Virus genome (UHGV): UHGV-0126763
DNA length: 37,920 bases
Source: a virus
Reading direction: 5' to 3' (one strand)
In this document: piece after piece, positions 23,654-37,920 of the stretch
Numbering within the stretch: the first letter of the stretch is position 1
How the letters are laid out: the number at the start of each line of letters is the position of its first letter
The notes under the pieces: generated by a model
The model's input: only the letters and a program-made list of their open reading frames with translations
What the model was told of the DNA's origin: nothing
The model's database searches: none
Made by a program: the position numbers and the translations under genes

Positions 23654-24814
23654 ATGGCACAGGGCTTACCTGTATCCAACGTTGTAAACGTTGATGTGAT
23701 CATCTCGCCGAAAGCGGCTACTGGTCGTAACTTCGGCGCGCTGCTGATCCTCGGCTCTTCCACTGTCATTCCGGTGCAGGAACGCATTCGCCTTTATGCG
23801 TCCGTTGAGGACATTGGCGAGGACTTCGGAGTCGACAGCCCGGAATATGAAGCGGCGCAGGTTTTCTTCAGCCAGTCACCGAAGCCGACACAGGTTTATG
23901 TTGGTCGCTGGGCGAAGACGCTGAGTTCTTCCGAGAGTGGAGATACTGAAACCATCGTGCAAGCTGTTAATGCCTGCCTGCAATATACCAACTGGTATGG
24001 GCTGGTTGTCGCTGATGATGTTGTCGCTGGTGGCGATGTGCTTGATGCTGATGACGTGATTGAGGTCGCCAAACTTATTGAAGCGTCCAGCCTTAGCCGT
24101 ATCTTTGGTGTGACCTCTGCCGACGCCGAGATTATCAGCACGACTTCGACGACCGATGTTGCGTCGAAATTAAAGGCTGGCAAGTATGCCCGTACCTTTA
24201 TTCAGTATTCCACCAGCAGCCCTTACGCAGCGGTTTCTGCTTTCGGTCGTGCGTTTACTGTCAATTTCAACGGCAGCAATACCACCATTACCCTGAAGTT
24301 CAAACAGGAACCAAGCGTAACCTACGAAACGTTGACGGTAGGCCAGGCGGCTGCGGTGGATACGAAGAATGCGAACGTGTTCGTGTACTACGCCAACGAC
24401 ACGGCGATCCTGCAACAGGGTGTCATGGCGAACGGTGACTTCTTCGACGAGCGCCACGGGCTCGACTGGTTGCAGAACTACGTTCAGACCAACCTCTATA
24501 ACCTGCTTTACACCAGCACCACCAAAATTCCGCAGACTGATGCCGGTGTGACCCGTCTGCTTTCCAACGTTGAACAGTCCATGGATCAGTCCGTCACGAA
24601 CGGTCTGGTAGCGGCTGGCGTGTGGAATGGTGGACCTATCGGACAGCTGAATTCCGGCGATACGCTGACCAAAGGTTATTACGTGTATGCGCAACCTCTT
24701 TCAGAACAGGCGCAGGCCGACCGAGAAGCTCGCAAAGCACCGTTAATTCAGGTGGCCTGTAAGCTGGCTGGCGCAGTTCATTATGCCGATGTGCAGATCA
24801 ACGTGGTTCGCTAA
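23654..24814 (+). CDS. Putative tail sheath protein
   Basis: 386 aa, first large gene of tail module, followed by tube-like and chaperone genes; assignment by position and size. Confidence 0.5.
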
Positions 24815-24824
24815 GGAGCGATAA

Positions 24825-25265
24825 ATGTCAACTTATTCTTTTCTCGATGTAACCGCGTCGCTCATCGGGCCGACCGGCGTTATCGATCTTGGTCAGGGTT
24901 CTGCGAACTCTGAGGAAGGTATCACCCAGACCATGGGCGGCAACAAGAACACCATGACCATCGGTGCCGATGGCGAAGTGATGCACAGCCTGCACGCCGA
25001 TAAGTCAGGCACCATTACGGTGACGCTGCTGAAAACCTCCCCGGTGAACAAGAAGCTGTCTCTGGCGTATAACGCGCAAAGCCAGTCCTCTGCCACCTGG
25101 GGCAATAACGTGATCGTCATTCGCAACACGGCATCGGGTGATATTTCTACTGCGCGTTCGTGCGCATTCCAGAAACAGCCTGATTTCAATAACGCCAAAG
25201 AGGGCGGGACTGTTTCCTGGGTGTTCGACTGCGGCAAGATTGACCAGCTGCTCGGGGAGTTTTAA
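24825..25265 (+). CDS. Putative tail tube protein
   Basis: 146 aa, AAGGAG RBS, between sheath-like gene and chaperone. Confidence 0.5.
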   Translation: MSTYSFLDVTASLIGPTGVIDLGQGSANSEEGITQTMGGNKNTMTIGADGEVMHSLHADKSGTITVTLLKTSPVNKKLSLAYNAQSQSSATWGNNVIVIRNTASGDISTARSCAFQKQPDFNNAKEGGTVSWVFDCGKIDQLLGEF

Positions 25266-25268
25266 CGC

Positions 25269-25694
25269 ATGGAATTCGAAATTAAAGGCGTGAAATATCG
25301 CACCGCAAAGCTCAGCGTTTTCGAACAGCTGAAGGTGTCCCGCAAGCTGTTGCCGGTGCTGGCCGGGATGGTTTCTGACTTTCGGAGCGTTCAGGAGAAG
25401 ATCAGCAGCAAAGACACCGAAGGCGCGATGGCTACCATCCTGCCAAAGATTGCCAATGCTGTGTCCGATCTGAGCGATGGCGACGTGGACGCTATCCTGT
25501 TCCCCTGCCTTTCCGTTGTTTCACGCGAGCACATGAAAGGCTGGGTGCCGGTCTGCCAGCATGGCGAAATGGCGTTTGACGATATCGACCTGCTGACCAT
25601 GCTGCAACTGGTGGCGCGGGTGGTCGCCGACTCGCTGGGAAATTTTTTGCAAGGACTCCCTACCAGCGAGACGCCCACCCCGCCAGCGGAATAA
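25269..25694 (+). CDS. Tail assembly chaperone (G-like)
   Basis: 141-aa ORF directly upstream of tape measure gene; contains slippery AAATTTTTTG near its 3' end. Confidence 0.6.
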   Translation: MEFEIKGVKYRTAKLSVFEQLKVSRKLLPVLAGMVSDFRSVQEKISSKDTEGAMATILPKIANAVSDLSDGDVDAILFPCLSVVSREHMKGWVPVCQHGEMAFDDIDLLTMLQLVARVVADSLGNFLQGLPTSETPTPPAE

Positions 25695-25882
25695 CCTTCA
25701 ACAGCCTGCCGGGCGGTGAAGATTTTATTCTTCGTCCGGCGCTTGCCTTCCAGATTGACCAGAAAGACCTTAACAGCGGTGCGGTAGACCTCTGCCGCAT
25801 CGCGCTTCTCAATGACTACCTCGACATGCGCGAGGATAACGACGCCCGGGTAGATAAATGGAGAGCGGCCAATGAGCGGTAA
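25269..25882 (+). CDS. Tail assembly chaperone -1 frameshift product (GT-like)
   Basis: -1 frame is open from the slippery site at 25640-25649 to TAA at 25880-25882; extension translates as protein-like ...TFNSLPGGEDFILRPALAFQIDQKDLNSGAVDLCRIALLNDYLDMREDNDARVDKWRAANER. Confidence 0.5.
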
Positions 25883-27953
25883 CGCAGATACGATTAAAGA
25901 TTTCCTTGTTTCGCTGGGATTCGATATCGATCAGGCTGGCGCTAATAAGTTTGAAGCCGTGCTGAAAGGCGTTACCGCGAACGTTCTGAAGGTCGGCGCG
26001 GTGGTGGAAGGCGCAGCGCTGAGCATTGTCGGATTTACCACCCAGATCGCGAATGGTCTGGATAAAATTTACTGGGCATCCCAACGGACGGGGGCCAGCG
26101 TCCAGGGCATCAAAGCGCTGGGCTATGCCGCATCGCAAACCGGTGCCAGCGCTGAGTCGGCCATGTCCTCCCTCGAAGGGCTGGCTGGCTTCATGCGTAG
26201 CAATCCGGGGGCGGAAGGGTTCCTGAACCGTCTTGGTGTCCAGACCCGCGATGCCAGCGGAAAGATGCGTGATACTGCTGCCATCTTTACTGGCGTTGGG
26301 CAAAAGCTCAACAACATGCCGTATTACCGCGCGAAGCAATACGCGCAGATGCTCGGTATCGATGAAAACACGCTGATGGCGATGCGGCGCGGCATGAATG
26401 GCTTTACCGCCGATTACCAGTCTATGCTGCAAAAGACGGGGTTCAACGCTGATAAGGCAGCCGTTCAGTCCAACAAATTCATGACGTCCATGCGCGGGCT
26501 TACGTCGCTGTTCGGCATTGTGCGGGACAAGATCGGCTCAAATCTCGCTGGTGGTCTGGCTGGTTCGCTGGACAGCCTGCGGCGGCGCATCCTCGACAAT
26601 TTCCCGAAGATTGAAGAGACGCTGACCAAAGTTATTAAGGGCGTGATCTGGCTTGCAAACGCCTTCACACGAATGGCGTGGCGGCTTATACAGGGCGCTG
26701 GCTCTGTCATTGACTGGTGGAAGCGTCTTGATGATGGCAGTAAAAATCTGCTGAAAATATTCGGTGCTCTACTGGTCGCATGGCGTCTGCTTAATTCTGC
26801 GTTCCTGAAATCCCCGATTGGAATTATCACCACACTGATTCTGGCGATCGGATTGCTGTACGACGATTACCAGACGTGGAAAGAGGGCGGTAAAAGCCTG
26901 ATTGACTGGTCCAAATGGCAGCCAGAAATTGAGCAGGCAAAGAAGGTGTTCAAGTGGCTGCGCGATAAGTTTCTGGAGCTCAAGGACAACCTCGGCGGCT
27001 GGAAAAATACGCTTACCATCCTGTTTGGCTTTCTGGCCGGTGCGAAGCTGTTCTCCATGCTCACTGGTATCGGGCGACTTGTCGCCGGATTTATGGGGCT
27101 CGGTAAGGCAATTGGCGGCTCTATTGGTGGGCTGGGTAAGCTGGCGCAGGGGATCGCTCAGTTGGCAATCAAGAATCCCTGGTTGCTTATGTTCATTCCT
27201 GCCAACAATACGCCGACCACCAGTGAAGAAATGGCGTCGATTGGCGGTATAGGCAGCAATATCGTACCTGAAAGGCAGCAGGCATATGAGGCGCTGAGAA
27301 AGGAAAATCCCGGCAAAGACTTTTTCACTGATGAGCAAATCCAGCGAAAAATTCAGGAGATGGGACTGGAGCCGGAGCAGCGAGCGCAGTCGGTTAAACG
27401 CCCACAAGCCACAGCGCAGGGCAAGGTTTTGCTCGACTGGATGGGGCCATTGTTCAATAAGCTGGAGTCTCTTTATCAGCTGCCTGCTGGCCTGTTGAAA
27501 AGCGTGGCGATCACCGAGTCGGGTGGTAACCAGTTCGCTGTGTCCGGCGCAGGCGCGAAAGGACTGTTTCAGTTTATGGATGGCACGGCGCGCGACATGG
27601 GCCTGCGTGGGAATGATGTATTCGACCCGGAAAAGTCAGCTCAGGCAGCCGCTAAGTACCTCAGCCAGCTGTTGCGGCAGAACGGCGGAGACCTTAGCAA
27701 AGCACTGGCATCATATAACTGGGGGATCGGGAATGTTAAGCGTTATGGAATGGGGCTAATGCCGCAGGAAACGCGCAACTACATTCCGAAAGTAATGAGC
27801 AATATGCCCACCAGCGCCCCGGTGATTCAGCAGGAAACGAATATTAACATCCACGGTGTTTCCGATCCGCGTGAAGCTGCCCGTTTGACTGTTGACCGTC
27901 AAAAGGGCGTGAATTCACAGTTAACCCAGCAACTCCCCGCAGGACCGAGATAA
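25872..27953 (+). CDS. Tail tape measure protein with C-terminal SLT lytic transglycosylase domain
   Basis: 693 aa; central hydrophobic/Gly-rich segments; C-terminal ESGGNQFAVSGAGAKGLFQF...YNWGIGNV matches soluble lytic transglycosylase motifs. Confidence 0.8.
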   Translation: MSGNADTIKDFLVSLGFDIDQAGANKFEAVLKGVTANVLKVGAVVEGAALSIVGFTTQIANGLDKIYWASQRTGASVQGIKALGYAASQTGASAESAMSSLEGLAGFMRSNPGAEGFLNRLGVQTRDASGKMRDTAAIFTGVGQKLNNMPYYRAKQYAQMLGIDENTLMAMRRGMNGFTADYQSMLQKTGFNADKAAVQSNKFMTSMRGLTSLFGIVRDKIGSNLAGGLAGSLDSLRRRILDNFPKIEETLTKVIKGVIWLANAFTRMAWRLIQGAGSVIDWWKRLDDGSKNLLKIFGALLVAWRLLNSAFLKSPIGIITTLILAIGLLYDDYQTWKEGGKSLIDWSKWQPEIEQAKKVFKWLRDKFLELKDNLGGWKNTLTILFGFLAGAKLFSMLTGIGRLVAGFMGLGKAIGGSIGGLGKLAQGIAQLAIKNPWLLMFIPANNTPTTSEEMASIGGIGSNIVPERQQAYEALRKENPGKDFFTDEQIQRKIQEMGLEPEQRAQSVKRPQATAQGKVLLDWMGPLFNKLESLYQLPAGLLKSVAITESGGNQFAVSGAGAKGLFQFMDGTARDMGLRGNDVFDPEKSAQAAAKYLSQLLRQNGGDLSKALASYNWGIGNVKRYGMGLMPQETRNYIPKVMSNMPTSAPVIQQETNINIHGVSDPREAARLTVDRQKGVNSQLTQQLPAGPR

Positions 27954-28555
27954 TGGATATTTTATCAGCGATTTTTCGCCAGCAATCCCGGCGAATTGGC
28001 CTGCTGATCCCCAGCGTGGTCGTCTCCGAAAAGCATTCTGATGCGCTCGAAATTACTGAGCATCCGGTGGAGAAGCCAACAACGAATAGCGCGTCGGGTT
28101 TCATCGCCGATCATGCGTATAAGCGTCCCAGCGAAGTCACAATGGAATGCGGCTTCGCTGGTGGCGGTTCGTTGCTGGACTTCATCGATACATCTTCAAT
28201 CGGCCTCAGCGCCGGACTGAGCCCGAAAGAGACTTATCAGCAATTGCTGGATCTCCAGTCCTCTCGGGTGCCGTTCGATGTGGTGACTGGCAAGCGGGTG
28301 TACAGCAATATGCTGGTGCGCGCCATCGAGGTGACGACCGATAAAACCAGCGAGAACGTGCTGAACTGCACGCTTACCCTGCGTGAAGTCATCATAACGC
28401 AGACAAAAAATGTCACCGTTGCAGATAAATCAGATATGCAGGATGGCGTCAGCACATCGGCGGTGCAGAATTCCGGGATGAAATCCACTACACCGCCAAA
28501 CGAATCCTTGCTGAGCCAGCTGGGCGGAAGCGTTACATCAGCATTCGGGGGATGA
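27953..28555 (+). CDS. Tail/baseplate-associated protein
   Basis: 200-aa ORF coupled (TAATG) to tape measure stop. Confidence 0.5.
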   Translation: MDILSAIFRQQSRRIGLLIPSVVVSEKHSDALEITEHPVEKPTTNSASGFIADHAYKRPSEVTMECGFAGGGSLLDFIDTSSIGLSAGLSPKETYQQLLDLQSSRVPFDVVTGKRVYSNMLVRAIEVTTDKTSENVLNCTLTLREVIITQTKNVTVADKSDMQDGVSTSAVQNSGMKSTTPPNESLLSQLGGSVTSAFGG

Positions 28556-28864: not shown

Positions 28865-29929
28865 ATGTCTCTTAACTGGATGCGCCATTTTGAGCTGCAA
28901 CTGTTGGACCAGAACGGGCAGGGCGTTTCCCTGTCTGACTTTAAGGTCACGTTCCAGATCGAGTGGGCAGACACACGCTGGCCACGCGTGGCGAACGTGA
29001 AAATTTACAACCTTTCGACCGATACCACGAACAAGATACTTGGGCAGGAGTTTGCCAAAATTCGCATCATTGCCGGGTATGACGGTATAGTGCCGGATGT
29101 TGATGCGAGCCAGGTTGGTGTGTCCCGGGAGATTTCACCAGACCAGATAGGGCAGGTGAACGGTCAGAACTACGGCCTGATTTTTGACGGTGATATTCGC
29201 TTCACCGTCACCGGGAAGGACAACATTACGGATTCCTGGGTGTTGATTCAGGCCATTGGTGATCACGAAGCGTTCCTCTATGCGACCACCATCACCACGC
29301 TTGCCGCTGGCTATACCGTTGCGGATCTGCACCGGGCGACGATGCAGGATTTCAACGCGTTCGGCGTGACACAGGGCATTACCGGCGATTTTCCTGATAC
29401 CGTGTTTCCTCGTGGCCGCGCGATTTACTCATCCAGCCGCAACGTGATGGATAATATTGCTGCGCAGTGCAAAGCGACATGGCAACTGGTGGATGGTCAG
29501 GTCCAGATGGTGCCGGAGGATAAATATATTCACGAAGCCATTGTGTTGAATGCCAATACTGGCCTGATCGGTATGCCGCAACAGACAATGGGCGGCGGCG
29601 TAAACGTGCGGTGCCTGATAAACCCAAACATCCGCATTAATGGTCTTATCCAGCTCGATCAGGCTTCGGTGTACCGCGCCGCGCTCGGCAATAGCGAAAT
29701 CGCACAGTCGCCCGGTCGTATCACTGAAACGGAAGAGAACGGCAACCGCGCACTGACCGGCACAACGTCACAGGCTGCCAGCATTGCGACAGATGGCGTT
29801 TATATCGTCAAAGCTATCGACTATACTGGCGACACCAGAGGTCAGGCGTGGTACATGGATTTGATGTGTTTTGCGCGTGGCAGTCGTGATTTAGTTAATG
29901 CTGGTGCTATGCAAAAAACAAACTACTGA
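28865..29929 (+). CDS. Putative baseplate hub / late-control D-like tail protein
   Basis: 354 aa, GGAG RBS, position between tape measure and spike gene. Confidence 0.5.
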   Translation: MSLNWMRHFELQLLDQNGQGVSLSDFKVTFQIEWADTRWPRVANVKIYNLSTDTTNKILGQEFAKIRIIAGYDGIVPDVDASQVGVSREISPDQIGQVNGQNYGLIFDGDIRFTVTGKDNITDSWVLIQAIGDHEAFLYATTITTLAAGYTVADLHRATMQDFNAFGVTQGITGDFPDTVFPRGRAIYSSSRNVMDNIAAQCKATWQLVDGQVQMVPEDKYIHEAIVLNANTGLIGMPQQTMGGGVNVRCLINPNIRINGLIQLDQASVYRAALGNSEIAQSPGRITETEENGNRALTGTTSQAASIATDGVYIVKAIDYTGDTRGQAWYMDLMCFARGSRDLVNAGAMQKTNY

Positions 29930-29939
29930 GGTACGGGAC

Positions 29940-30275
29940 GTGAAACTCGTAATTTTTATCATTGCAGCATTATTTTCTTTCCAAGCTATTGCTGATTCTC
30001 AGTGTGGTGATTTCAAAATCCATTGGGCTGATGATGGTTTCGCTCGCGTAAACGGAGCTAAACCTGAATCGCAAAAAGTGACATTTCTTAAAAATGACGG
30101 TGATTATAACAACGTCAAAATTGAATGGCGCTTAGCGACCAATCAACCAGGGCGATGGGTAGGAATGGAGTTTATTGGCCGTAATGGTAAAGCAATCCTG
30201 AATGCTCAGTGGCTGCAAGCCAGCATGGATTCGCCGCGTCAGTATGCAACATACGACTGCCGAAAAGTAAAATAG
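29940..30275 (+). CDS. Secreted small protein (Sec signal peptide), moron in tail module
   Basis: GTG at 29940 with GAGG 8 nt upstream gives MKLVIFIIAALFSFQAIA followed by DSQCGDF (AXA cleavage site); two Cys in mature part; AT-rich; ORF-track ATG at 29898 lacks the signal peptide context. Confidence 0.55.
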   Translation: MKLVIFIIAALFSFQAIADSQCGDFKIHWADDGFARVNGAKPESQKVTFLKNDGDYNNVKIEWRLATNQPGRWVGMEFIGRNGKAILNAQWLQASMDSPRQYATYDCRKVK

Positions 30276-30293
30276 CCCGCCAGATAGGCGGGC
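30275..30293. terminator. Hairpin between convergent moron genes
   Basis: GCCCGCC-agata-GGCGGGC; on the minus strand it is followed by T-rich CTATTTTACTTTT. Confidence 0.45.
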
Positions 30294-30298
30294 ATGCG

Positions 30299-30589
30299 TC
30301 AAAAATATTGAGCTTTAATTATAATAAACACAATAATTACGAACAGGATGTTTCTAATTATTTTTTGCTTATGAGTAAGTTGTTTTTTTTCTGTCGATTT
30401 CCCGGGAGAGTAAAGGTTAGTGGTATGCGACAGCCCCGTGCCGGGAAGGCCATTTGTCATCTTTACGCCTTTTTTTCCGATGTTAATGGTGGAACCTTTA
30501 CCACCAATTGAAGTGCTTACTCCGCTTTTACTAATGTTGATCGCGAGTCCGGGCGCAATCCGGATTCTTTTACGAAATCTAAATCCCAT
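30299..30589 (-). CDS. DUF4236-like protein with C-terminal membrane anchor, opposite-strand moron
   Basis: 96 aa; AGGAG RBS 6 nt upstream of ATG; N-terminal MGFRFRKRIRIAPG...SKSGVSTSIGGKG...GLPGTGLS resembles DUF4236 from memory; C-terminal hydrophobic ILFVIIVFIIIKAQYF. Confidence 0.65.
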   Translation of the reverse strand: MGFRFRKRIRIAPGLAINISKSGVSTSIGGKGSTINIGKKGVKMTNGLPGTGLSHTTNLYSPGKSTEKKQLTHKQKIIRNILFVIIVFIIIKAQYF

Positions 30590-35156: not shown

Positions 35157-36200
35157 TTACCCTGTAAATATGCTAAGGAATGTTTTTTGAAATGATTTGT
35201 TTTTATTTTTAGCGTTAATTAATGCTACTATACTAACTTGCAGTTTTACCATTATTGTAGCAAGTGTGTAAGTAAGTACATAACTTATTAAATAATGACT
35301 ACCTATTTTTTGACACATTATGATAAATGGGATGTGCCATAAATAAATCCAAATGGAGTTTTGGGATATGAATGAAACAACCTGCCATAATCTTAAAACC
35401 TTAAGTAAAAGAACAGCTTTGTTTGAGAGCAGATAGACTACGAATATCATAAAGGTTGCATAGGACATGTAATATATCCCAGGTGGGTACTTGTCTGACT
35501 GAGTTGGATTAAAGGCACCCAAGGTAATAATGTAATATGCAGTCATGGCAGAAAATAATAATCCACAGATAATGGTTGGGGGTAATAATTCTTTATGATC
35601 AGTGCTTGCAATTTTATAACCAATGATGAAAGCAAGTGTATAAGATATAGAGTTTGATATGTATGTCCCCAAAAGTATATAAATGCTCAACTTGTCAATT
35701 CCATTATACAATGGAATTAACTGGCTATTAATTAATAAAAATGACGCGGATATTGTTAATATCGCTTTTAAATTAAGTGTGTATAGTTTTGGAGGAATGA
35801 AAGTGGCTATCACTGATATTATGAAAAAGAGTCTAATAACCCACACATAACCAAGCCCACTGGATAATGCGAATGATGTTATTATAATTGACTTATTGTA
35901 AGTAAAGTCTTTTATATTAAAAATAAACGAAATGATTTCATTTATTAAGAAAAATGCCGCGAAGAAAATCCAAGTTGGTAAAACTAAACGGCGAAATCGA
36001 GAATTAATATATTTTATTCTGTTGCTATGGCGATGTTCGGTTACACAAAAGGACATCCCCATAACCATAAACATTAAAGGAACATCAAAGTTTCGCAGTT
36101 GAGCTAGCCATAAAGGAGGCTGGACATGGGCTAGAATGATTAGAGAAAGCCCGAGAAATCTTAAAAAATCTATTTTATCAATACGCATGACTTCGTCCAT
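35157..36200 (-). CDS. Acyltransferase family 3 integral membrane protein (putative O-antigen acetyltransferase)
   Basis: 347 aa, about 10 predicted TM segments, N-terminal IDFLRFLGLSLIILAHV motif typical of acyltransferase-3 (OafA/Oac-like); strongly AT-rich; sits between tail fiber genes and integrase. Confidence 0.8.
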   Translation of the reverse strand: MDEVMRIDKIDFLRFLGLSLIILAHVQPPLWLAQLRNFDVPLMFMVMGMSFCVTEHRHSNRIKYINSRFRRLVLPTWIFFAAFFLINEIISFIFNIKDFTYNKSIIITSFALSSGLGYVWVIRLFFIISVIATFIPPKLYTLNLKAILTISASFLLINSQLIPLYNGIDKLSIYILLGTYISNSISYTLAFIIGYKIASTDHKELLPPTIICGLLFSAMTAYYIITLGAFNPTQSDKYPPGIYYMSYATFMIFVVYLLSNKAVLLLKVLRLWQVVSFISQNSIWIYLWHIPFIIMCQKIGSHYLISYVLTYTLATIMVKLQVSIVALINAKNKNKSFQKTFLSIFTG

Positions 36201-36676: not shown

Positions 36677-37834
36677 TCATGTGACGTTACCGTCTATCCA
36701 GTCCGCCCACCATTGCATCATTTCTCTGCGCTTATCGAGATACTGAGCATGATTGTAAATTCCACGCACAGATCCGCCGTTGGCATGTGCCAGTTGCACT
36801 TCAATGGCGTCGGCAGGCCATTCGTGCTCGTTCATAATCGTGCTGAATTCATGCCTGAATCCGTGACCGCTTTCCAGACCTTCATAGCCGATTTGTTTGA
36901 TCACAAGCAATACCGCGTTCTCGCAGATTGGCTTCTTCTTATCGTTGCGCCCGGCAAAAACAAACTCTGAGACTGGTTTAGTGATGGAGCTTAGCGTAGT
37001 GAGAAGCTCAACCACCTGGTCTGACATAGGAACAACATGAATTTTGCGTCCCTTCATCACATTGGCGTCGATGGTGATAATCCTGTTTTCAAAATCGACG
37101 TTCTTCCATAGCATGGAACGAAGCTCTTTTGTTCTGAGGGCTGTGTAGCGTAAAACTTTGGTCGCAATGAGCGATACGATACTTCCTGAAAATGTTGCAA
37201 GTGCTTTGTTGAATTCCGGGATCTGGTCTGCAGGAAGAAACGGGAAGTTCTTCTTGCGGTATCCCTTCATGGCGTCAGCAAGGTCAGGTGACGGGTTATA
37301 TTTAGCCCTTCCGGTGACAATAGCGTAACGGAAAACCTCGCCGCATCTTCTGCGTGCTTTGTTGGCTCGCTCCATTGCGCCGCGATCTTCAAATCTGCGG
37401 ATTACTTCCAGCAGTTTCATCGGCTCAATATCCTGAATTTCAAGGCCGCCGATGATAGGTAAAATGTCGTCATCAAACATCTTTGCAAGTTCATTTGCAT
37501 AGCCTACTGACCAGACTTGCTTCTTGTGCTCGTACCATTCCTTGTAAATGGCGCTAAAGGAATTGTTGTTAGACGAAGCCTTTTTCGCCTTTACCGGATC
37601 GATGCCAACCGAGATGTCTTTCCTCGCAGTCCATGCTTTATCCCTTGCCTCCTGCAAAGTCATAAGCGGATATTTTCCTACGGTCAGTATTTTTTCCTTA
37701 CCGTCAATCTTGTAGCGAAGCTGCCATACCTTTTTCCCGGATACAGGGACATAAAGGTACAGGCCATTACCATCGAGAAGGCGATATGGTTTTTCTTTCG
37801 GCTTTGCTGCTTCAATCTGCTTAACGGTGAGCAT
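36677..37834 (-). CDS. int: Tyrosine integrase (P4-like family)
   Basis: N-terminus MLTVKQIEAAKPKEKPYRLLDGNGLYLYV typical of this family; C-terminal catalytic region with RHEFST and HANGGSVRGIY; ORF-track start 37870 is an upstream GTG. Confidence 0.85.
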   Translation of the reverse strand: MLTVKQIEAAKPKEKPYRLLDGNGLYLYVPVSGKKVWQLRYKIDGKEKILTVGKYPLMTLQEARDKAWTARKDISVGIDPVKAKKASSNNNSFSAIYKEWYEHKKQVWSVGYANELAKMFDDDILPIIGGLEIQDIEPMKLLEVIRRFEDRGAMERANKARRRCGEVFRYAIVTGRAKYNPSPDLADAMKGYRKKNFPFLPADQIPEFNKALATFSGSIVSLIATKVLRYTALRTKELRSMLWKNVDFENRIITIDANVMKGRKIHVVPMSDQVVELLTTLSSITKPVSEFVFAGRNDKKKPICENAVLLVIKQIGYEGLESGHGFRHEFSTIMNEHEWPADAIEVQLAHANGGSVRGIYNHAQYLDKRREMMQWWADWIDGNVT

Positions 37835-37920
37835 GGGTAAAAATCCGGTGGGTAAAATTATTTTATCCACTTTTTACCCGTCATGGAGTGCGGCTGTCAA
37901 CGATCTGACGCGAACCATGA

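What the first reader, a model, noticed from the sequence alone, without database searches (positions are those of the whole stretch)
25638..25882. Probable -1 programmed ribosomal frameshift in the tail assembly chaperone gene
Near the 3' end of the 25269..25694 ORF the sequence GGGAAATTTTTTG contains overlapping slippery heptamers (AAATTTT and TTTTTTG). The -1 frame stays open from there for about 80 codons of protein-like sequence and stops at 25880-25882, overlapping the tape measure start. This matches the conserved G/GT chaperone frameshift found upstream of tape measure genes.
Basis: seen in the sequence. Interest (0 to 1): 0.5.

Follow-up and report, generated by a model that had tools for sequence, protein, structure and literature searches.

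The report
Frameshifted tail assembly chaperone (G/GT type)
This E. coli prophage most likely makes a long form of its tail assembly chaperone by a -1 ribosomal slip on the run GGGAAATTTTTTG just upstream of the tape measure gene, which is an ordinary instance of the well-known phage G/GT frameshift, although reference annotation splits it into two genes.

Summary
The tail assembly chaperone ORF (25269..25694) carries G_GGA_AAT_TTT_TTG at 25637-25649, which is three overlapping slippery heptamers, all in phase. The -1 frame is open for 100 codons (25580-25879) and stops at TAA 25880-25882, overlapping the tape measure ATG at 25872.

The 0 frame matches Pfam Phage_TAC_15 (E 5e-33). The -1 extension matches DUF6889 above Pfam's cut-off.

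Among 75-78 distinct relatives (45-100% chaperone identity):
- The T run in the phase T_TTT_TTN is present in 74 of 75.
- Asn125 is always AAT and Phe126 always TTT, while other Asn and Phe codons vary.
- The -1 extension stays 60-65 codons long.
- -1-frame residues are conserved through synonymous changes from two codons after the slip site.
- No start codon is conserved for the -1 part.

Distant phages (Burkholderia, Ralstonia, Acinetobacter, Bordetella) keep the two-frame layout but use other in-phase heptamers at the same position. I found no stimulatory RNA structure.

GenBank already annotates the homologue in Klebsiella phage Mulock as a frameshift product. RefSeq instead calls a separate "DUF6889 family protein" with ATA or CTG starts. 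This is an ordinary member of a known kind, and its value is as an annotation fix. Nothing here has been shown experimentally.

The parts
25269..25694 (+). Tail assembly chaperone ORF (G-like product, 141 aa, stop TAA 25692-25694)
   Evidence: ORF listed. Matches Pfam PF21822 Phage_TAC_15 at E 4.8e-33 and PHROG 1688 'tail assembly chaperone' at E 3e-57. A GGGGAG Shine-Dalgarno lies 9 nt upstream of the ATG.
25637..25649 (+). Slippery run G_GGA_AAT_TTT_TTG, made of three overlapping in-phase X_XXY_YYZ heptamers (25637-43, 25640-46, 25643-49)
   Evidence: Phase checked. The T run in phase T_TTT_TTN is present in 74 of 75 distinct relatives, and about 60 keep the full run. Among relatives Asn125 is AAT 69/69, Phe126 is TTT 77/77 and Gly124 is GGA in 88%.
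25643..25882 (+). -1 frame extension (T-like part of the fusion), ending at TAA 25880-25882. The predicted GT product is 204 aa, joining 25269..25643/46/49 to the -1 frame.
   Evidence: Translations. The extension is 60-65 codons long in nearly all relatives, while the +1 frame extension varies from 2 to 60 codons. -1-frame residues are conserved through many synonymous codons, for example Arg129 at 97% with 6 codons and Leu175 at 100% with 5 codons.
25760..25867 (+). DUF6889 domain (PF21829) encoded in the -1 frame, fusion residues 165-200
   Evidence: Pfam score 41.6 bits against a gathering cut-off of 23.9, E 1e-10. PHROG 4364 at E 3e-17. Modelled as a confident small helical domain (pLDDT 81-90) after a low-confidence linker in the natural fusion P0004.
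25859..25865 (+). TGGAGAG, the Shine-Dalgarno of the tape measure gene, embedded in the Trp198-Arg199 codons of the T part
   Evidence: Sequence. Trp198 is 100% TGG, and Arg199 is the AGA codon in 90% of sequences that have Arg there.
25872..27953 (+). Tape measure protein with a C-terminal SLT lytic transglycosylase domain. Its ATG overlaps the end of the T frame by 11 nt.
   Evidence: PHROG 2276 'tail length tape measure protein' at E 5e-216. Pfam SLT at E 3e-25.
24825..25265 (+). Tail tube protein (context, and the presumed binding partner of the T domain)
   Evidence: Pfam PF11681 at E 1.6e-59. It lies directly upstream of the chaperone gene.
23654..24814 (+). Tail sheath protein, DUF3383 family (context)
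   Evidence: Pfam PF11863 at E 4e-102. PHROG 205 'tail sheath' at E 1e-127.

Best explanation
This is a programmed -1 ribosomal frameshift of the lambda G/GT type in the tail assembly chaperone gene of a temperate contractile-tailed E. coli prophage.

Most ribosomes read 25269..25694 and make the 141-aa chaperone. A minority slip back one base on the run G_GGA_AAT_TTT_TTG (25637-25649) and continue in the -1 frame to TAA 25880. That gives a 204-aa fusion of the chaperone body, a flexible linker and the small helical DUF6889 domain.

The slip probably needs only the slippery run. The three heptamers give three consecutive chances, and A_AAU_UUU belongs to the class that is efficient in E. coli.

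By analogy with lambda, the shared G part would coat the tape measure protein and the T part would recruit the tube protein, with neither product ending up in the virion.

- Shown here: the sequence layout, the family matches, and selection on both the slip site and the -1 frame.
- Inferred: the slip itself, its efficiency, which heptamer is used, and the binding partners.
For: - Phase and open frame.
- Family matches for both halves.
- Gene order of tube, chaperone, tape measure.
- In about 78 distinct relatives from different Enterobacterales species, the -1 extension is 60-65 codons long and the T run is kept in phase in 74 of 75.
- Synonymous sites are frozen only at the slip site. AAT is used 69/69 and TTT 77/77 there, against 37-63% usage of the same codons elsewhere in the gene. 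The rare Gly codon GGA is used in 88%.
- 0-frame residues are conserved through several codons up to Gly124, and -1-frame residues from Arg129 onward (97% conserved, six codons). That pins the frame switch to these 13 nt.
- The only start-like codon in the -1 frame is ATG 25826, inside the domain. Among relatives the furthest-upstream start-like codon lies anywhere from 0 to 62 codons before the stop. Only 18 of 78 could cover the whole conserved T part, and only 1 of those has a Shine-Dalgarno-like sequence.
- Database calls of the T fragment range from 42 to 75 aa.
- A T7 variant (L086, protein P0004, also E. coli ISC7) is an in-frame fusion with exactly the predicted junction GNFFA.
- Phages at 30-40% identity keep the two-frame layout, with C_CCT_TTT, G_GGT_TTT plus T_TTT_TTC, or G_GGA_AAT at the same position.
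- Mulock and Magia are deposited with joined frameshift CDSs.
- H_HH.U_UU.Y heptamers are among the efficient ones in E. coli (PMC4066793).
- Lambda G/GT biology is as reviewed in PMC5009743.
Against: - There is no experimental evidence for the fusion product in this phage or, as far as the searched literature shows, in any member of the family.
- No downstream stimulatory structure was found: z -0.6 in the window, mean z -0.3 over 78 relatives, and an empty consensus fold. Efficiency may therefore be low, although lambda also works without such a structure.
- U_UUU_UUG and G_GGA_AAU are not in the top efficiency class for E. coli.
- A few relatives lack the full layout (L109, L148, L154). These look like decaying prophages.
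- Edwardsiella phage ZHS has only a T_TTT tetramer at the site.
Confidence: 0.9

Rival explanations
1. The -1 frame ORF is a separate small gene (a stand-alone DUF6889 protein) translated from its own start codon, as RefSeq and most phage records annotate it.
For: RefSeq PGAP lists a separate 'DUF6889 family protein' CDS between the chaperone and the tape measure gene. Many databases hold stand-alone proteins of 42-75 aa.
Against: - In this window's sequence the RefSeq CDS starts at ATA. Relatives are annotated with CTG, GTG or TTG starts at different positions.
- The only ATG/GTG/TTG in the window's -1 frame is at 25826, in the middle of the Pfam domain.
- There is no conserved start position. 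Only 18 of 78 relatives have any start-like codon that covers the conserved region, and only 1 of those has a Shine-Dalgarno-like sequence.
- -1-frame amino acids are already conserved two codons after the slip site, well upstream of any annotated start.
- This reading does not explain the frozen synonymous sites of the slippery run.
Confidence: 0.03
2. The same fusion arises by transcriptional slippage. RNA polymerase adds one extra U on the T6 run, so that standard translation of the edited mRNA gives GT.
For: Adding one T in the DNA (T7 in L086) gives exactly the in-frame fusion. The T run is the most conserved part of the site. Homopolymer runs are known slippage sites (PMC4066793; PMC5009743).
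Against: - Six T is shorter than the runs of about 8-9 or more on which bacterial transcriptional slippage is efficient. This threshold is from my own knowledge of the literature, not tested here.
- Conservation extends beyond the T run to GGA and AAT, which matters for tRNA re-pairing but not for polymerase slippage.
- Bordetella phage IFTN9 and Salmonella L138 have no T run and keep only G_GGA_AAT. Burkholderia phages have C_CCT_TTT with only four T.
Confidence: 0.05
3. The open -1 frame and the heptamers are chance features with no function.
For: Single in-phase heptamers are common, 22 in 23 kb of this window's genes.
Against: - The -1 frame scores above Pfam's cut-off for a protein family.
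- Length, phase and amino acids are conserved across about 78 relatives and in phages of other bacterial orders.
- Off-frame open runs of 100 codons are rare, 4 of 886.
Confidence: 0.01

Closest known systems
Bacteriophage lambda gpG/gpGT tail assembly chaperone frameshift (Levin et al. 1993; Xu et al. 2004, 2013, 2014, as reviewed in PMC5009743)
   Same: - It sits directly upstream of the tape measure gene.
[quoted passage not shown]
- The first heptamer G_GGA_AAT differs from lambda's G_GGA_AAG only in the last base.
- No stimulatory RNA structure is evident.
- The short extension forms a separate small domain.
   Different: - No detectable sequence similarity to lambda G or T. The families here are Phage_TAC_15 and DUF6889.
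- The phage has a contractile tail (sheath and tube) rather than a siphovirus tail.
- There are three overlapping heptamers instead of one.
- Product ratio, binding partners and requirement for assembly are untested.
Klebsiella phage Mulock CPT_Mulock_014/015 and Burkholderia phage Magia CPT_Magia_015/016 ('tape measure chaperone' and 'tape measure chaperone frameshift product')
   Same: These are homologues (Mulock 56% identity over the whole fusion, Magia about 37%) with the same two-frame layout. Mulock has the identical GGGAAATTTTTTG run.
   Different: Those are computational annotations in GenBank. The Mulock genome announcement does not mention the frameshift. Magia uses C_CCT_TTT.
Myovirus chaperone frameshifts such as P2 E/E+E'
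   Same: A contractile-tailed phage with the frameshifted chaperone between the tube and tape measure genes. The review states that this conservation extends to long-tailed phages generally and that efficiency in P2 is 2- to 3-fold higher (PMC5009743).
   Different: A different protein family. No sequence comparison was made here.

Membership tests
G/GT-type tail assembly chaperone frameshift (Xu et al. 2004) | The gene pair lies between the major tail or tube gene and the tape measure gene | tested here: met
   Tube 24825-25265, chaperone 25269-25694, tape measure 25872-27953.
G/GT-type tail assembly chaperone frameshift (Xu et al. 2004) | A second reading frame overlaps the 3' end of the first and has no start of its own | tested here: met
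   The -1 frame is open 25580-25879 and overlaps 38 codons of the chaperone ORF. The only start-like codon is ATG 25826, inside the domain. There is no conserved start among 78 relatives.
G/GT-type tail assembly chaperone frameshift (Xu et al. 2004) | A slippery sequence lies in the correct phase within the overlap | tested here: met
   G_GGA_AAT, A_AAT_TTT and T_TTT_TTG are all in phase. The site is conserved at synonymous positions.
G/GT-type tail assembly chaperone frameshift (Xu et al. 2004) | The two-frame arrangement is conserved among relatives despite sequence divergence | tested here: met
   About 78 genome loci at 45-100% identity. 37 of 40 matching phage records cover at least 80% of the fusion, each as two pieces in different frames, down to 30% identity. 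Distant phages use other heptamers at the same position.
G/GT-type tail assembly chaperone frameshift (Xu et al. 2004) | Both products are made in a fixed ratio and both are required for tail assembly | not testable with these tools
   This needs proteomics or genetics. No experimental paper on this family was found.
G/GT-type tail assembly chaperone frameshift (Xu et al. 2004) | The G part binds the tape measure, the T part binds the tail tube subunit, and neither is in the virion | not testable with these tools
   Inferred by analogy with lambda only (PMC5009743).
Pfam PF21822 Phage_TAC_15 | Score above the gathering cut-off | tested here: met
   114.8 bits against a cut-off of 22.
Pfam PF21829 DUF6889 | Score above the gathering cut-off | tested here: met
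   41.6 bits against a cut-off of 23.9, on the -1 frame translation.
Structure-stimulated -1 frameshift sites (IS3 or dnaX type) | A downstream stem-loop or pseudoknot, or an upstream Shine-Dalgarno-like stimulator | tested here: not met
   Downstream folding is no better than shuffled sequence (z -0.6; mean z -0.3 over 78 relatives with an empty consensus structure). No Rfam match. An upstream Shine-Dalgarno-like element was not tested rigorously.
Transcriptional slippage sites | A long homopolymer run (about 8-9 nt or more in bacteria; threshold from my own knowledge) | tested here: not met
   The run is T6 here and in 78 of 80 close viral loci. Some relatives lack a T run altogether.
Known tail assembly chaperone folds in the PDB | Structural similarity of the G part to a solved chaperone | tested here: inconclusive
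   The model has a mean pLDDT of only 66.6. No Foldseek match with E below 1. No sequence match in the PDB.

The most novel reading that the evidence does not exclude
The triple overlapping slippery run could be a functional design of its own. Three successive slip opportunities without any RNA stimulator might set a higher or more robust GT:G ratio than lambda's single heptamer, and might give two fusion isoforms (…GNFFA… and …GNFLA…). Separately, DUF6889 would be a T domain specialised for the tube protein of DUF3383-sheath contractile tails. Neither idea is excluded by the evidence or supported beyond conservation of the whole run in about 60 of 75 relatives.
Probability: 0.15. Interest if true: 0.35.

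Novelty: new member of a known kind. Interest (0 to 1): 0.2.

Why it matters
The main value is correcting annotation. In RefSeq E. coli genomes and most phage records the T part is called as a separate "DUF6889 family protein", with implausible ATA or CTG starts, or is mislabelled "lytic transglycosylase". The evidence here says DUF6889 is the frameshift-encoded C-terminal domain of the tail assembly chaperone. That gives a Pfam domain of unknown function a likely role and allows the joined CDS to be annotated across this widespread prophage group (401 of 5426 complete E. coli genomes have a match). It does not change what is understood about frameshifting or tail assembly.

Tried and rejected
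- Downstream RNA stimulator: folding of 25650-25740 and of 80 nt after the site in 78 relatives, with a consensus fold, gave nothing above shuffled controls. Rfam gave no match.
- Structure route: the AlphaFold model of the G part had only moderate confidence, and Foldseek against the PDB gave no meaningful match. A PDB sequence search gave nothing.
- One mixed alignment of G-only and T-only proteins misaligned the T fragments and was discarded.
- Literature searches for DUF6889, PF21822/PF21829, DUF3383 with frameshift, and Hafnia phage yong1 found nothing.
- Scanning viral contigs for the T7 variant gave 52 hits, none of which encodes a relative of the chaperone.
- The first viral-contig scan returned only near-identical loci (95-100%), which were of no use for comparison. 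The genome collection supplied the diversity.
- A second in-phase heptamer near the end of the tape measure gene (A_AAG_GGC at 27902) was checked and is not conserved in relatives.

Full report
**1. What is in the sequence**

The ORF 25269..25694 (141 aa) reads ...GAC TCG CTG GGA AAT TTT TTG CAA... across 25629-25652. The run G_GGA_AAT_TTT_TTG (25637-25649) therefore holds three overlapping heptamers of the form X_XXY_YYZ, all in the phase needed for tandem -1 slippage. They are GGGAAAT (25637), AAATTTT (25640) and TTTTTTG (25643). The first one is lambda's G_GGA_AAG with a different final base.

The -1 frame is closed by TGA at 25577 and is then open for 100 codons up to TAA 25880-25882. That stop overlaps the ATG (25872) of the next gene. 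The only ATG, GTG or TTG in that frame is ATG 25826, 18 codons before the stop.

For scale, off-frame open runs inside this window's genes average 16.5 codons, and only 4 of 886 reach 100. The 13-mer is unique in the window, against 0.11 expected with one mismatch allowed. Single in-phase heptamers are common, 22 in 23 kb of genes, so the motif alone proves little.

**2. What the genes are**

The window is a temperate contractile-tailed prophage of E. coli, 99.8% identical over this stretch to strain LR-71-1. An integrase lies at 36677-37870.

The gene order around the finding is:
- sheath, 23654-24814 (DUF3383, E 4e-102)
- tube, 24825-25265 (PF11681, E 2e-59)
- chaperone, 25269-25694
- tape measure protein with an SLT domain, 25872-27953 (PHROG 2276, E 5e-216)
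- a Dit-like protein, a baseplate plug and a hub

The 0-frame product matches PF21822 Phage_TAC_15 (114.8 bits, cut-off 22) and PHROG 1688 "tail assembly chaperone". The -1 extension matches PF21829 DUF6889 (41.6 bits, cut-off 23.9; fusion residues 165-200, which is 25760-25867) and PHROG 4364. So the -1 frame encodes a recognised protein family and is not an accidental open frame.

**3. Comparative test**

A scan of one genome per species returned 80 loci from Enterobacterales with 45-100% chaperone identity.

*Frame layout.* In nearly all of them the -1 frame runs 60-65 codons beyond the 0-frame stop. The +1 frame extension varies between 2 and 60 codons.

*The slippery run.* Among 75 distinct sequences the T run in the phase T_TTT_TTN is present in 74, and about 60 keep the whole run GGGAAATTTTTT. 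The one sequence that breaks the T run, Salmonella L138, retains G_GGA_AAT.

*Exceptions.* The loci that break the layout look like decaying prophages:
- L148 has a disrupted chaperone.
- L154 has a TAG in the -1 frame.
- L109 has a truncated extension.

*Codon usage.* A codon-level alignment of 78 distinct predicted fusions shows that synonymous sites are frozen only at the slip site.

| Position | Codon usage at the slip site | Comparison elsewhere in the gene |
|---|---|---|
| Asn125 | AAT in 69/69 | Asn182 is AAT in 63%; Asn191 is AAC in 79% |
| Phe126 | TTT in 77/77 | Phe18 is TTC in 63%; Phe103 is TTT in 56% |
| Gly124 | GGA (rare codon) in 88% | other Gly columns have no codon above about 50% |

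When residue 125 is Ser, Gly or Asp, its codon still ends in T.

*Where the frame switches.* Upstream of the run, 0-frame residues are conserved through many codons; Ser122 is 94% conserved using six codons. From two codons after the run, -1-frame residues are conserved in the same way:
- Arg129, 97%, six codons
- Pro131, 96%
- Leu175, 100%, five codons
- Asn191 and Trp198, 100%

This places the change of selected reading frame within the 13-nt run.

**4. Independent initiation is not supported**

RefSeq annotates a separate "DUF6889 family protein". In this phage it starts at ATA, and in relatives at CTG, GTG or TTG at different positions.

Among 78 relatives the furthest-upstream start-like codon after the slip site lies anywhere from 0 to 62 codons before the stop. 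Only 18 could cover the conserved T region, and only one of those has a Shine-Dalgarno-like sequence.

Database entries for the fragment range from 42 to 75 aa, and several are misnamed "lytic transglycosylase".

**5. Further support**

- A relative with seven T (Logan contig L086, protein P0004, 213 aa) is an in-frame fusion whose junction...SLGNFFA..., is exactly the one predicted. Its 90%-identity cluster has 16 members, most of them 212-213 aa, from Logan assemblies and E. coli ISC7. Whether these are real variants or homopolymer sequencing errors is open.
- In the phage collection, 37 of 40 matching records cover at least 80% of the fusion, each as two pieces in different frames, down to 30% identity.
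- At the homologous L-G-x-F position, distant phages carry other in-phase heptamers:
  - Burkholderia phages have C_CCT_TTT.
  - A Ralstonia phage has G_GGT_TTT followed by T_TTT_TTC.
  - An Acinetobacter phage has G_GGA_AAT followed by A_AAT_TTT.
  - A Bordetella phage has G_GGA_AAT only.
  - Edwardsiella phage ZHS has only the tetramer T_TTT.

  Keeping slipperiness while changing the sequence is what a functional frameshift site would be expected to do.
- GenBank records of Klebsiella phage Mulock (identical run, 56% identity) and Burkholderia phage Magia already carry joined CDSs labelled "tape measure chaperone frameshift product". The Mulock paper itself does not discuss the frameshift.

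**6. Mechanism**

No downstream structure is evident. The window's 91 nt after the site fold no better than shuffles (z -0.6). The 80 nt after the site in 78 relatives have a mean z of -0.3, and their consensus fold is empty. Rfam gives nothing. The site thus resembles lambda's in relying on the slippery sequence alone.

In the systematic E. coli study, the efficient classes include H_HH.U_UU.Y, which covers A_AAU_UUU and C_CCU_UUU, but not U_UUU_UUG or G_GGA_AAU (PMC4066793). Across the whole family, the most widely shared feature is also a TTT codon preceded by T. I therefore think A_AAT_TTT, helped by T_TTT_TTG, is the main site here. This is inference.

A slip on either of the first two heptamers gives ...GNFFAR..., and a slip on the third gives ...GNFLAR....

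Transcriptional slippage on T6 would give the same protein. It is less likely because the run is short, because conservation extends into GGA and AAT, and because some relatives have no T run.

The modelled natural fusion has a low-confidence linker followed by a confident small helical domain (pLDDT 81-90). This fits a tethered T domain.

The roles proposed for the two parts are taken from lambda (PMC5009743) and are untested here. In that model the G part sits on the tape measure protein, the T part recruits the tube protein, and both are absent from virions.

**7. Verdict**

This is an ordinary member of a long-known kind. Its homologues have already been annotated as frameshifted by some depositors, but reference annotation of E. 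coli prophages splits it into two genes and leaves the T part as a domain of unknown function.

Interest is low (0.2). The practical value is the annotation fix and the assignment of a role to DUF6889.

Noticed in passing
window 25691-25882; L003 3423-3614; L005 1977-2141; L004 1989-2087: RefSeq PGAP calls the -1 part as a separate 'DUF6889 family protein' with start codons ATA, CTG and GTG at different positions. In other databases the same fragment is often named 'lytic transglycosylase', probably copied from the neighbouring tape measure protein.
   Followed up: yes
L086 1901-1950 (Logan SRR23924998); proteins P0004, P0150 (E. coli ISC7 CDL28562.1): Variants with seven T instead of six encode the chaperone and T part as one in-frame 213-aa protein. 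The P0004 cluster has 16 members, most of them 212-213 aa. They could be real replication-slippage variants or homopolymer sequencing errors. None was found among 80 close viral contigs.
   Followed up: partly
window 25859-25865: The Trp-Arg codons TGG AGA near the end of the T frame are almost invariant, with the rare AGA codon used in 90%. They form the Shine-Dalgarno sequence (TGGAGAG) of the tape measure gene, so this stretch carries two overlapping constraints.
   Followed up: partly
window 29898-30589: A low-GC insert (0.45 against about 0.55) lies between the baseplate hub and spike genes. It holds a 125-aa ORF with a signal-peptide-like N-terminus and no Pfam match (29898-30275, +) and a DUF4236 protein on the opposite strand (30299-30589). 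It looks like a moron.
   Followed up: partly
window 35157-36200 (-) and 36677-37870 (-): An Acyl_transf_3 family acyltransferase with very low GC (0.32) lies next to the prophage integrase. It is a candidate O-antigen-modifying lysogenic conversion gene.
   Followed up: no
window 27902-27908: An in-phase A_AAG_GGC heptamer lies 50 nt before the tape measure stop, with the -1 frame continuing into the next gene (27953-28555). It is not conserved in Hafnia phage yong1 or phage vB_EcoM-689R2, so it is probably chance.
   Followed up: partly
L141 (Izhakiella australiensis), L109, L148, L154: In L141 the -1 frame runs 241 codons past the chaperone stop, so the T stop is lost and the frame reads on into the tape measure region. 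L109 has a truncated T part, L148 a disrupted chaperone and L154 a TAG inside the T frame. These are probably decaying prophages.
   Followed up: no
L135 (record titled Chryseobacterium sp. 18061); Elizabethkingia phage EKP1 (H53): Records labelled as Flavobacteriia or their phage carry an enterobacterial-type chaperone with the same slippery run (52-56% identity). The host label may be wrong, there may be contamination, or the host range may be unexpectedly wide.
   Followed up: no
L225 (Edwardsiella phage vB_EpM_ZHS) about 700-720: This relative keeps the two-frame layout but has no canonical heptamer at the homologous site (GGG GAT TTT ATG). Only a T_TTT tetramer remains, and its -1 extension is longer at 76 codons.
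   Followed up: no
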